Virus record (IMG/VR): IMGVR_UViG_2654588181_000007
Direction: 5' to 3' (one strand)
Length of the DNA stretch: 17,045 nt
From: a virus
Taxonomy: Duplodnaviria > Heunggongvirae > Uroviricota > Caudoviricetes
Shown here: in pieces, positions 10,222 through 12,466 of the stretch
Position numbering within the stretch: the stretch's first letter is position 1
How the letters are laid out: every line of letters begins with the position of its first letter
The notes under the pieces: generated by a model
What the model saw: only the letters and a program-made list of their open reading frames with translations
What the model was told of the DNA's origin: nothing
Databases searched by the model: none
Program-made: the position numbers and the translations under genes

Positions 10222-10439
10222 AAAAACCTCTTTGTTATGACCTATCGTTATTTTATTTGATATTCCTTTATCTCATTATGCATAAAGGCGCAATGTTCAT
10301 GCAAAAGCAATCACAATTGTACCCCCAACCCAATTATTTGCCACAATATACACAAAGCACATTGATACTATCTAAAAACTCTGCTTTATTATTAGTAATA
10401 CCTACGAAAGTCGGTGTTATTTTTTAACCTACCATTCAA

Positions 10440-10488
10440 AATACGTGACATACACCATTTTGCTCATAATAATTTGTCACGTATTTTC
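10440..10488. repeat. 12-bp perfect inverted repeat AAATACGTGACA / TGTCACGTATTT separated by 25 bp (49-bp dyad)
   Basis: Read directly at 10440-10451 and 10477-10488, in the 464-bp AT-rich spacer between the ybcK stop and the ybcL start. Confidence 0.5.
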
Positions 10489-10685
10489 AGTATTTGAATC
10501 TGCGACCAAGAGTTCTCACCTAACAAATGATTAAGATTGTATAGCTCATTTACTACCCCAATACAGCCGTACAAAACTCGCTTGTGGGAGCAAACAAAGT
10601 AATTACCCATTAAGTTTCGTCAAAGATAATTAATTCTGTCTTGCACTTTATCACCATAGCATAACTTAAAATCCGAGATCATTAT

Positions 10686-12212
10686 TTAGAAATAAATCTC
10701 ACCATCAACCATATATTTGAGAGCACTTATCGCCTGCTGGGCGGATATTACTTTCATTAAAGGATAGTGTTTAAAAACAATGCCATTCATAAAATAGATA
10801 TCACAGGTTTTATTATCCGTATTAATTATGATTTTTTCGAATGTTTTATAGGCAAGTGTACGGCATAACTCTCGTCCATTTTTACTGGTTAAGTCAATAG
10901 CATAAAAATCACTGAATGAATTTACACCTTTACTCTTCAAAGTTTTCAATGATACCGAAGCCCTTCGTAATTCCTTATCTAATAGTCTTATTTTCTCTGC
11001 TATAGCGGTAACTTCAGGCGCGACAGACAATGCAACGATTAAATTATTAATTTTCATCTGAAGCTCAATAATTTTTAACTCTAAAGTTTCATTAGCATCT
11101 TTCTTGTTTTCAACTGGTTGAATTTTGCTACAATTAAAAAGCAATTCATTAATGATATTATAATCAACCAAATCTCTTTTTATTGATGGCCTGTCACATC
11201 GATGTAATCTTCTCATCGGACAAACATAATAGCCATGCAAACTTCCAGATACCGCATGAACAATCATGGTATTACCACAAGCCTCACACTTCATAACTGT
11301 TCGAAGTAGATTTATTAGCATAGGATTCTTGCTACTATTGCTAATACCAAAAGGTGCCAACCGAATTTCCTGTACAGCGTAAAACAAATCATCTGATATG
11401 ACTCTGGGATAATAGCCAGCGATTTCACTTATCCCTTTCCCTCTTGCACGATATGAAGGTACGCATATACCTATCAGAGCTTTATTCGCTAATAATTTTT
11501 CAATTACAGAAGGTCCCCATGCACTTTCTTTTCCTGAGAAATTCTTTACAGCATGATCATTTAAATACTTGGCTATTGCATTCAATGAGCGCCTTTCCAT
11601 CCTGAGTTTAAAAATTAGCTCAATAGTTTTCACCCTGTCGGGGTCTGGAACAAAAGCCGTTCTTTTGTCATCTAAGGAGAGCCATCTCGGACAAGACGCC
11701 GTCATAATCGTACCTGATTCCAGTGCATCCTGCCGTTTTTTCTTCCATGATAATTTAACCCGACTTGACTTTATCTCGCTTTCTTCATTTGCCCTTTGTG
11801 CTATAAGTATGGCTTTTATTAATGAATATGGCTCATTCAAAGAGTCAATATTATAGACTGTATTGTCGCAAAGAGTTATAACATCAATACCGTGATTCAA
11901 AATCAATTTCAGACGTTCAATCGCTTCACCGACTTTTTCTCTTGAAAGTCTGTCCAGACTTTCAACTAACAATGTAGTTCCTGGCAATATATAACCATGC
12001 TCTATAGCATCTAAAAATTCCGAAAAAGCTCCTGATTGTGCATGCTTTCCTTTGAATGCACTTAATCCTAAATCTTCATATGTTATGGTATCAAGATAAT
12101 AATCACTATTTACCTTTAACCATTCAGCAATAAGTCTTCTCTGTCGGTTTAATGAGTCGCCAGACATCTGACCTGGTGATGAAAATCGCATATATGCTAT
12201 GGCTTTTTTCAT
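10686..12212 (-). CDS. ybcK: Large serine recombinase (508 aa): resolvase catalytic domain, recombinase domain, Cys-rich zinc-ribbon region
   Basis: N-terminal AYMRFSSPGQ (catalytic Ser context) and Cys cluster CEACGN...YYVCPMRRLHRC. Very AT-rich gene; RBS AGGTG upstream of the ATG at 12212. Confidence 0.9.
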   Translation of the reverse strand: MKKAIAYMRFSSPGQMSGDSLNRQRRLIAEWLKVNSDYYLDTITYEDLGLSAFKGKHAQSGAFSEFLDAIEHGYILPGTTLLVESLDRLSREKVGEAIERLKLILNHGIDVITLCDNTVYNIDSLNEPYSLIKAILIAQRANEESEIKSSRVKLSWKKKRQDALESGTIMTASCPRWLSLDDKRTAFVPDPDRVKTIELIFKLRMERRSLNAIAKYLNDHAVKNFSGKESAWGPSVIEKLLANKALIGICVPSYRARGKGISEIAGYYPRVISDDLFYAVQEIRLAPFGISNSSKNPMLINLLRTVMKCEACGNTMIVHAVSGSLHGYYVCPMRRLHRCDRPSIKRDLVDYNIINELLFNCSKIQPVENKKDANETLELKIIELQMKINNLIVALSVAPEVTAIAEKIRLLDKELRRASVSLKTLKSKGVNSFSDFYAIDLTSKNGRELCRTLAYKTFEKIIINTDNKTCDIYFMNGIVFKHYPLMKVISAQQAISALKYMVDGEIYF

Positions 12213-12410
12213 GGTGACACCTGCTAACGTATGCTTTTATAAACCTTAGTGGTGGGATATAATTTTTGTTTAATTTTTATTTAAAAAGACAATTAAGGTC
12301 ACATTATCTTGAATATACAACAATAATCGTATTGCAATTTTCTTACGCCATAATCTTGAAAGCACAAAAGAATACATAAAAAATAAAGACATTAACAAAA
12401 AGCATAAAAC

Positions 12411-12445
12411 GAGGCTCATATAAATATAAGAGCCTCCATATTTTA
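12411..12445 (-). terminator. Rho-independent terminator candidate on the minus strand just downstream of emrE (7-bp stem GAGGCTC / GAGCCTC, then a T-rich run)
   Basis: Stem at 12411-12417 / 12431-12437; on the minus strand the hairpin is followed by GTTTTATGCTTTTTG. Confidence 0.45.
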
Positions 12446-12466
12446 GTCGTTTAGAAACAAATTATT

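What the first reader, a model, noticed from the sequence alone, without database searches (positions are those of the whole stretch)
10222..12466. Large serine recombinase ybcK flanked by AT-rich spacers, one holding a 49-bp dyad that could be its att-like site
ybcK encodes a 508-aa large serine recombinase, the family that includes phage integrases and transposon resolvases, embedded in a low-GC cargo block (emrE, ybcK, ybcL, ybcM) inside the nin region. About 200 bp beyond its stop is a perfect 12-bp inverted repeat, AAATACGTGACA-N25-TGTCACGTATTT (10440-10488). Large serine recombinase att sites are typically ~40-50 bp with dyad symmetry around a central crossover, so this may be a substrate site and the block may be or have been independently mobile. 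Alternatively it is an operator for ybcL/ybcM.
Basis: partly seen in the sequence, partly recalled or inferred. Interest (0 to 1): 0.5.

Follow-up and report, generated by a model that had tools for sequence, protein, structure and literature searches.

The report
Hairpin palindrome beside prophage recombinase ybcK
A perfect 13-base inverted repeat does sit about 200 bases after the prophage recombinase gene ybcK, but it lies at no mobile-element boundary, has no partner site and is missing from about half of all ybcK copies, so it is more likely an ordinary terminator-like hairpin than the recombinase's docking site.

Summary
ybcK (10686-12212, minus strand) is an intact 508-aa large serine recombinase. 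The repeat has 13-bp perfect arms (10438-10450 / 10475-10487) and a 24-nt spacer; only about 1% of shuffled windows contain one as good.

- The cargo slot is bounded at 8831/8832 and 12898/12899.
- The ybcK sub-module is bounded at 10376/10377 and 12459/12460 (versus emrE-ybcL-ybcM loci that lack ybcK), and near 10612-10645 (versus other ybcK-bearing phages).
- None of these junctions touches the dyad.
- The dyad occurs once per genome in 675 E. coli genomes and has no partner.
- It is absent from the O157, Perceval and Turner-type ybcK arrangements.
- Nothing comparable sits beside YbcK orthologues.
- Its inner 24 bp are asymmetric.

The operator alternative also fails. Published ChIP-exo data place YbcM at 10289-10322, 116 bp away, in DNA that ybcK-less loci also carry.

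My best guess (about 0.4) is a weak, bidirectional-type terminator or insulator hairpin closing the ybcK transcription unit. A functionless palindrome is nearly as likely.

Side lead: three YbcK orthologues sit in 3-7-kb cassettes flanked by duplicated fragments of the phage gene they interrupt. This suggests the family mobilises cargo cassettes inside lambdoid prophages.

The parts
10686..12212 (-). ybcK: an intact 508-aa large serine recombinase, identical to K-12 YbcK.
   Evidence: ORF. Pfam Resolvase, Recombinase and Zn_ribbon_recom. PHROG 95 'integrase', E = 4e-120. R9, S11, D87, R88, R91 and C309/C312/C331/C339 are invariant across 17 orthologues. Identical to K-12.
10438..10487 (.). The dyad: 13-bp perfect arms (10438-10450, 10475-10487) around an asymmetric 24-nt spacer, laid out as A4 - 9-bp stem - loop - stem - T4.
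   Evidence: repeat I6. Chance about 1%. RNA hairpin of -18.7 kcal/mol, z = -4.8, on the ybcK strand, and -14.9 kcal/mol, z = -3.2, on the other strand.
10377..10612 (.). AT-rich segment specific to this ('A-type') arrangement and holding the dyad. It is absent from ybcK-less emrE-ybcLM loci and from the other ybcK arrangements, and it has no diverged homologue anywhere searched.
   Evidence: Found only in E. coli and three E. coli phages, at 97.8-100% identity.
10613..10685 (-). ybcK 3' tail, shared in diverged form (about 70-90%) with the O157, L093, Turner and Perceval arrangements. Homology with those arrangements is lost at about 10612.
10316..10344 (-). ybcL sigma-70 promoter, GTGGCA-17-TACAAT.
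   Evidence: Promoter scan. The same hexamers are reported by genomic SELEX in PMC3946193. It lies in DNA shared with ybcK-less loci.
10289..10322 (.). YbcM (AraC-family) autoregulatory binding site found by ChIP-exo.
   Evidence: PMC8464067 supplement gives 570015-570048 in NC_000913.2 coordinates, signal/noise 357. The coordinate system was checked against ucpA. The sequence was mapped onto the window.
12270..12419 (-). ylcJ, a 49-aa small-protein gene in the emrE-ybcK spacer.
   Evidence: RefSeq annotation in PSS-07 and MG1655. Pfam YlcJ on a called gene. Translation.
12405..12440 (-). emrE terminator hairpin: GGAGGCUC...GAGCCUC followed by a U-rich tail.
   Evidence: Palindrome. Fold of -14.6 kcal/mol followed by GUUUUAUGCUUUUUGU.
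12467..12800 (-). emrE, frameshifted in this window by an extra A at about 12602.
   Evidence: (annotated 'frameshifted').
8832..12898 (.). Variable cargo slot of the DLP12-type backbone, 36% GC against about 50% in the flanks. It holds ybcM (8863-9660), ybcL (9670-10221), ybcK, ylcJ and emrE.
   Evidence: The slot edges are the same in the window, in the O157 prophage L002 and in L091, which has different cargo. GC content. Pfam for YbcL and YbcM.

Best explanation
The dyad is not a recombination site.

It is a solitary hairpin-forming palindrome in the 3' untranslated tail of the ybcK 'moron'. A moron here means a horizontally acquired, low-GC unit of promoter, gene and terminator carried in the nin region of a lambdoid prophage.

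Its layout is A4 / 9-bp stem / loop / stem / T4, which is the DNA signature of a bidirectional intrinsic terminator. I infer that it acts, weakly, as a terminator or insulator, or as a stabilising 3' hairpin. In that role it would separate ybcK transcription from the independently promoted, YbcM-autoregulated ybcLM operon about 95 bp further on.

Shown: the position, the symmetry, the predicted stable RNA hairpin, the lack of any link to mobile-element junctions, and the lack of overlap with the YbcM site.

Inferred: that the hairpin terminates or insulates transcription.

YbcK itself is an intact but silenced large serine recombinase, subject to H-NS and to Rho-dependent termination at its 5' end. 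It is carried as cargo by viable lambdoid phages that integrate with their own tyrosine integrase.
For: - Position: the dyad lies 198 nt after the ybcK stop codon and 93 nt upstream of the -35 element of the SELEX-defined ybcL promoter. That is where a moron's terminator is expected.
- A-tract/stem/T-tract symmetry.
- Stable predicted hairpin on both strands: -18.7 kcal/mol, z = -4.8, 0 of 200 shuffles as good; and -14.9 kcal/mol, z = -3.2.
- No other terminator-like site on the ybcK strand between ybcK and ybcL.
- The neighbouring emrE unit ends in an analogous hairpin with a long AT-rich loop, which the strict scan also missed.
- Rival readings were tested and failed. Junctions do not coincide with the dyad. 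There is no partner. The dyad is not co-inherited with ybcK. YbcM binds elsewhere.
Against: - The loop is 24 nt and only 4 of the 13 stem pairs are G-C. The consensus terminator scan did not call it.
- On the ybcK strand the U-run is mostly inside the stem, and GAAUGG follows.
- Published 3'-end mapping lists only a Rho-dependent end 38 nt into ybcK and none at the dyad. This is weak evidence, because the gene is barely transcribed.
- All 675 copies are 97.8-100% identical and no diverged homologue exists. Conservation or covariation therefore cannot be used.
- Perfect 13/13 symmetry is more than an RNA hairpin needs.
Confidence: 0.4

Rival explanations
1. A functionless palindrome. It would be a perfect inverted repeat created by a template-switch (quasipalindrome correction) or an inverted-duplication event in AT-rich filler DNA. 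It persists only because every A-type copy is a very recent descendant of one ancestor.
For: - The 236-268-bp segment holding it has no homologue outside one near-clonal arrangement.
- Both ybcK and ybcLM occur without it in thousands of genomes.
- No RNA family, ORF family or motif matches it.
- No conservation signal is detectable.
Against: - A repeat this good arises in only about 1% of shuffled windows.
- The A-tract/T-tract framing and the placement between two transcription units look organised.
- An unrelated phage contig carries the same 10-nt arm core as an inverted repeat, although about one such match is expected by chance.
Confidence: 0.32
2. One reading: the dyad is a YbcK substrate or binding site. 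It would be an attP-like site kept intact inside the block, or an accessory or autoregulatory site, with each 13-bp arm contacted by a zinc-ribbon domain of a YbcK dimer.
For: - The 50-bp length and the outer-arm spacing are compatible with large-serine-recombinase attP geometry (established knowledge of Bxb1 and A118 sites; not tested here).
- In E. coli the dyad is never found without ybcK next to it.
- YbcK keeps all catalytic residues.
- The family appears to be mobile elsewhere.
- In one orthologue the prophage end lies downstream of the recombinase gene.
Against: - The dyad is intact in the integrated state and lies 61 nt or more from every junction.
- Its inner 24 bp are only 3/12 symmetric (read from the sequence).
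- No partner exists.
- It is absent from the O157, L093, Turner and Perceval ybcK arrangements.
- No equivalent dyad lies beside 20 orthologues.
- In the three orthologue cassettes with recognisable ends, the junction next to the recombinase is 150-480 bp upstream of the gene, not downstream.
Confidence: 0.1
3. An operator for a transcription factor acting on ybcLM, on ybcK or on an antisense promoter. Candidates are YbcM or an unidentified phage or host regulator. A GTGACA-17-AATAAT promoter-like match lies inside the dyad on the plus strand.
For: - Perfect dyad symmetry is typical of sites bound by dimeric proteins.
- The promoter-like hexamers at 10445-10473 score 10/12.
- AraC-family proteins can use 13-bp half-sites at variable spacing (general knowledge).
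Against: - YbcM ChIP-exo reports a single site in this intergenic region, at 10289-10322.
- The arm centres are 37 bp apart, which is 3.5 helical turns and places them on opposite faces of the helix.
- ybcLM loci without ybcK lack the dyad yet keep the promoter and the YbcM site.
- Promoter-like hits are no more frequent than in shuffles: 14 found against 12.2 expected.
- SELEX reported only the ybcL promoter in this spacer.
Confidence: 0.12

Closest known systems
Large serine recombinase phage integrases and their attP/attB sites (phiC31, Bxb1, A118/LI, TP901-1)
   Same: YbcK has the family's three-domain architecture, catalytic Ser/Arg residues and a four-Cys zinc ribbon. The dyad's 50-bp length matches a typical attP.
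   Different: - Real att sites are imperfectly symmetric across the whole half-site around a central dinucleotide. In an integrated element they are split into attL and attR at its ends.
- This dyad is symmetric only in its outer 13 bp.
- It is intact, lies inside the block away from all junctions, has no partner, and is missing from half the ybcK loci.
- The phages carrying ybcK integrate with their own tyrosine integrase.
- YbcK has no close solved relative by sequence.
Lambdoid-phage 'morons' (Hendrix/Juhala concept): a low-GC insert with its own promoter and a factor-independent terminator
   Same: The low-GC cargo sits in a recombination-prone slot between ren and the nin genes. It has its own sigma-70 promoters and hairpins after emrE and after ybcK. 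The slot holds different cargo in different phages.
   Different: The hairpin after ybcK is a poor consensus terminator, with a 24-nt loop and an AT-rich stem. Termination there has not been shown.
Bidirectional intrinsic terminators (A-tract / stem-loop / T-tract)
   Same: AAAA-stem...stem-TTTT symmetry, with a stable hairpin on both strands.
   Different: ybcK and ybcL are co-directional, not convergent. The loop is far longer than the usual 3-8 nt. No mapped 3' end is known.
AraC-family operator of YbcM at the ybcLM promoter (Gao et al. 2021)
   Same: It lies in the same intergenic region and belongs to the same cargo block.
   Different: The mapped site is 10289-10322, 116 bp from the dyad, and has an unrelated sequence.

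Membership tests
Large serine recombinase (protein YbcK) | N-terminal resolvase-type catalytic domain with the serine nucleophile and conserved Arg/Asp residues | tested here: met
   PF00239, E = 5.5e-19. R9, S11, D87, R88 and R91 are invariant in 17 orthologues.
Large serine recombinase (protein YbcK) | Recombinase domain plus a zinc beta-ribbon domain with four Cys | tested here: met
   PF07508 and PF13408 are above their cut-offs. C309, C312, C331 and C339 are invariant.
Large serine recombinase (protein YbcK) | Coiled-coil motif inserted in the zinc-ribbon domain | tested here: inconclusive
   Residues about 360-440 are heptad-like and variable, with a conserved A-P-x-V turn (A394, A398, P399, V401). 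No structure was predicted.
Large serine recombinase (protein YbcK) | Catalyses recombination between cognate att sites | not testable with these tools
   No experimental report was found. Indirect support: 3 of 20 orthologue loci are flanked by target-gene duplications.
Large-serine-recombinase attachment site (the dyad) | About 40-50 bp with imperfect dyad symmetry across the inner and outer half-site positions around a central dinucleotide | tested here: not met
   The length fits at 50 bp. However, only the outer 13 bp are symmetric. The inner halves, TACACCATTTTG and AATTATTATGAG, match at 3/12 positions.
Large-serine-recombinase attachment site (the dyad) | Marks the end of the mobile unit, so it is split into attL and attR when integrated | tested here: not met
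   Junctions lie at 8831/2, 12898/9, 10376/7, 12459/60 and about 10612-10645. The dyad is intact at 10438-10487.
Large-serine-recombinase attachment site (the dyad) | A partner site exists | tested here: not met
   Half-site matches in the window number 10 against 6.9 expected. There is one place per genome in 675 genomes. No third arm occurs on dyad-bearing viral contigs. Caveat: attB and attP need not resemble each other, and whole-genome 13-mer scans were not possible.
Large-serine-recombinase attachment site (the dyad) | Co-inherited with its recombinase | tested here: not met
   ybcK at 97-100% identity occurs without the dyad in O157-type prophages and in phages Perceval, 4A7, D2, 1W, 3W, Lambda_4C10, PhiR47_2 and Turner. 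No analogous dyad lies beside orthologues.
Intrinsic (Rho-independent) terminator | Stable RNA hairpin downstream of a gene | tested here: met
   -18.7 kcal/mol, z = -4.8, 198 nt after the stop codon.
Intrinsic (Rho-independent) terminator | G+C-rich stem, 3-8-nt loop and a U-tract immediately 3' of the stem | tested here: not met
   Not called by the consensus scan. It has 4 G-C pairs of 13 and a 24-nt loop. The UUUU forms the end of the stem and GAAUGG follows.
Intrinsic (Rho-independent) terminator | An RNA 3' end mapped at the site | tested here: inconclusive
   The Term-seq supplement lists only the position 568940 inside ybcK. ybcK is Rho-terminated and H-NS-silenced, so little RNA reaches the dyad.
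YbcM (AraC-family) operator | Occupied by YbcM in vivo | tested here: not met
   The ChIP-exo peak maps to 10289-10322.

The most novel reading that the evidence does not exclude
YbcK-family large serine recombinases may be the integrases of small (about 2-7 kb) cargo cassettes. These would insert site-specifically into conserved genes of lambdoid prophages (a DUF1367 nin gene, the replication gene P, a small-terminase-like gene) and rebuild the interrupted reading frame. On this reading the E. coli emrE-ylcJ-ybcK(-ybcLM) block is an immobilised descendant. The intact 50-bp dyad would be a surviving YbcK recognition site, either an unused attP-like site or an accessory/autoregulatory site, rather than a terminator.
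Probability: 0.1. Interest if true: 0.6.

Novelty: new member of a known kind. Interest (0 to 1): 0.2.

Why it matters
YbcK is one of the few uncharacterised recombinases left in E. coli K-12, and large serine recombinases are valued genome-engineering tools. A cognate site next to the gene would have made its activity directly testable.

The evidence indicates the dyad is not that site, so it should not be used as a presumed att. The site is better sought at the junctions defined here, or in the orthologue cassettes that carry recognisable target duplications.

The dyad itself is an ordinary feature of a moron-type cargo unit.

The more interesting by-product is the hint that this recombinase family moves cargo cassettes within lambdoid phages.

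Tried and rejected
- Rfam at permissive E-value over 9600-13000: nothing.
- Whole-segment RNA folds of 10377-10685: not more structured than shuffles.
- YbcK against PDB sequences: no hit.
- The 48-aa ORF at 10464-10610 (annotated as hypothetical in phage PhiR68_2): no PHROG and no relatives. Treated as spurious.
- Homology between the A-type 268-bp segment and the 281 bp that replaces it in O157: none.
- A decayed copy of the emrE 3' end downstream of ybcK, as a possible attL/attR pair (15/21 match between 10614-10634 and 12479-12499): not above chance, with 3 such matches in the window against 1.2 in shuffles. Rejected.
- Flanking direct repeats around the E. coli block: none.
- A conserved 'ATTA..TATC..CGAA' patch downstream of ybcK: seen only in the E. 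coli arrangements and in one Atlantibacter orthologue, not family-wide. Left as a weak lead.
- Downstream dyads in orthologues L012/L013: they lie inside a coding gene, so they are coincidental.
- IMG/VR scan for the dyad: 40 identical copies, plus one unrelated contig (L115) with the same 10-nt arm core and a 14-nt spacer and no recombinase nearby. About one such hit is expected by chance.
- Conservation test: 14 variable sites in the spacer and none in the dyad, against 1.5 expected. This is not significant and the sample is biased.
- Literature: no functional study of YbcK was found.
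Full report
WHAT IS THERE

The window is a DLP12-type lambdoid prophage read in reverse. Its best match is E. coli PSS-07, integrated at argU.

ybcK (10686-12212, minus strand) encodes a 508-aa protein with Resolvase, Recombinase and zinc-ribbon domains. It matches the PHROG 'integrase' family 95 at E = 4e-120 and is identical to K-12 YbcK. In an alignment with 16 orthologues of 42-61% identity, the catalytic residues R9/S11/D87/R88/R91 and the four zinc-ribbon cysteines are invariant. 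The gene therefore looks functional.

The repeat is real: 13-bp perfect arms at 10438-10450 and 10475-10487, with a 24-nt spacer. An inverted repeat this good appears in about 1% of block-shuffled windows.

The spacers are 33% and 27% GC. The whole cargo is 36% GC, against about 50% in the backbone.

WHAT THE SPACERS ALREADY CONTAIN

The emrE-ybcK spacer holds:
- the emrE terminator hairpin (about 12405-12440);
- the small-protein gene ylcJ (12270-12419);
- a SELEX-defined sigma-70 promoter with H-NS binding (PMC3946193);
- a Rho-dependent terminator in the ybcK leader and early ORF (PMC4150792; PMC7815308 supplement).

The ybcK-ybcL spacer holds the ybcL promoter GTGGCA-17-TACAAT (10344 to 10316). 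It also holds the YbcM ChIP-exo site. The paper gives 570015-570048. I showed these to be NC_000913.2 coordinates by checking the ucpA site, and I mapped the sequence to window 10289-10322. The dyad lies 116 bp further upstream, so it is not the YbcM operator.

BOUNDARIES

The backbone slot is bounded at 8831/8832 and 12898/12899. These positions are the same in three places:
- the window;
- an O157 prophage (L002), which carries emrE-ybcK plus 281 unrelated bp and no ybcLM;
- L091, which has two other genes in the slot.

Roughly 2,000 or more E. coli genomes carry emrE-ybcL-ybcM without ybcK, at a prophage remnant near fliE (L001). Their homology to the window runs 8646-10376 and 12460-12876. 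Relative to them, the ybcK module is 10377-12459. The joints show only AATAAT-type microhomology.

Twelve sequenced viable phages carry ybcK, together with their own tyrosine integrase where this was examined. Only three of them (PhiR34_1, PhiR68_2, PhiR70_1) have the dyad segment. In the others (Perceval, 4A7, D2, 1W, 3W, Lambda_4C10, PhiR47_2, Turner), in O157 prophages and in metagenomic L092-95, the sequence after ybcK is about 70-90% similar for about 75 bp. It then becomes unrelated from about 10612.

The dyad sits in a segment (10377 to about 10612) that belongs to neither neighbouring module. It lies 61 nt or more from any junction.

PARTNER AND CONSERVATION

- Half-site matches in the window are at chance level, 10 against 6.9 expected.
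- A 136-bp query around the dyad finds exactly one place in each of 675 genomes, at 97.8-100% identity.
- Dyad-bearing viral contigs have no third arm.
- Protein clusters jump from 92% to 61% identity, so no intermediate relatives exist. The segment has no diverged copy in phages or plasmids.
- Conservation and covariation therefore cannot be assessed.
- Twenty orthologue loci show no comparable downstream dyad. The one apparent case lies inside a coding gene.

HOW THE FAMILY BEHAVES

Orthologues sit in prophages at moron positions. These include the nin region (L089, L096, L007), positions after the tail-fibre genes (L087), and the last prophage gene 540 bp from an intact ssrA (L085).

In three loci the recombinase plus cargo is flanked by direct repeats that are fragments of the interrupted phage gene:
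- L096: the 5' part of DUF1367, 229 bp at 82.5%, with the left copy truncated and the right copy intact;
- L022: the 3' part of replication gene P, about 380 bp at 75%, with the right copy in an intact P;
- L023: a small-terminase-like gene, 248 bp at 84%.

This is the signature of site-specific insertion with restoration of the target gene. In these loci the junction next to the recombinase is 150-480 bp upstream of its start. The E. coli block has no such repeats.

INTERPRETATION

The att-site reading fails four of its defining features: half-site symmetry, position at an element end, a partner site, and co-inheritance with the recombinase. The YbcM-operator reading fails on direct published binding data.

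What remains is a hairpin with A4-stem-T4 framing. It folds at -18.7 kcal/mol, z = -4.8, on the ybcK strand. It sits between two independently promoted units, with no other terminator candidate nearby. Its neighbour emrE ends in a similar long-looped hairpin. I therefore favour a weak terminator or insulator hairpin of the ybcK moron (0.4).

A functionless palindrome is close behind (0.32). An unknown regulator's operator (0.12) and a YbcK site (0.1) are less likely.

The terminator reading is an inference. The long loop, the AT-rich stem and the absence of a mapped 3' end all count against it.

VERDICT

The identification of the recombinase and of the cargo block is correct. The att-like and operator readings of the dyad are not supported. 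The feature is ordinary and of low interest. The cassette-like orthologues are the lead worth following.

Noticed in passing
L096:5623-5851 and 8609-8831; L022:5281-5657 and 8216-8592; L023:5273-5519 and 12149-12394: Three YbcK orthologues (48-59% identity) lie in 3-7-kb cassettes flanked by direct repeats. The repeats are fragments of the phage gene they interrupt: DUF1367, replication gene P, and a small-terminase-like gene. In L096 and L022 one copy lies in an intact reading frame and the other is a truncated fragment; this was not resolved for L023. This looks like site-specific cassette insertion with restoration of the target gene.
   Followed up: partly
window 12467-12800 (about 12602): emrE carries a 1-nt insertion (an extra A: GTCGGT becomes GTCAGGT) that truncates the protein after residue 66. 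RefSeq marks it as frameshifted in the matching strain PSS-07.
   Followed up: yes
window 13167-14048: A single ORF joins the N-terminal domain of replication protein O to the C-terminal part of protein P. This indicates a deletion in the replication module and marks the prophage as defective.
   Followed up: no
window 3376-3966 and 4064-4639: A Pin/Gin-type small serine invertase gene lies next to tail-fibre-assembly genes. It is a second, unrelated serine recombinase in the same window.
   Followed up: no
L092-L095 (for example L093:5001-6437): An E. coli YbcK variant of 478 aa has an in-frame deletion of about 30 residues between the catalytic and recombinase domains. It is followed by a P22 antirepressor C-terminal fragment. 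The O157 arrangement equals this one minus 227 bp lying between two CTATC repeats.
   Followed up: partly
L085:9531-10070: In an Atlantibacter prophage the YbcK orthologue is the last phage gene, 540 bp from the 3' end of an intact tmRNA gene (ssrA). There it may be the prophage's own integrase. A short AATTAAT..TATCTTT.CGAA motif downstream resembles the stretch 52-75 bp after E. coli ybcK.
   Followed up: partly
L115:2917-2956: An unrelated viral contig holds AGATACGTGACAC-N14-GTGTCACGTATCT. This shares the 10-nt arm core with the E. coli dyad but has a different spacer and no recombinase within 2-3 kb. About one such match is expected by chance.
   Followed up: partly
window 11193-11211: A published PhoB ChIP site (TGTCACATCGATGTAATC) lies inside the ybcK coding sequence. 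The authors class such intragenic sites as transcriptionally inert (PMC10294691).
   Followed up: no
window 8790-8832: All slot variants converge on a conserved TTGATTT-N-AAATCAA repeat, followed by the hairpin TCACCGGAG-N9-CTCCGGTGA, exactly at the left edge of the cargo slot.
   Followed up: no
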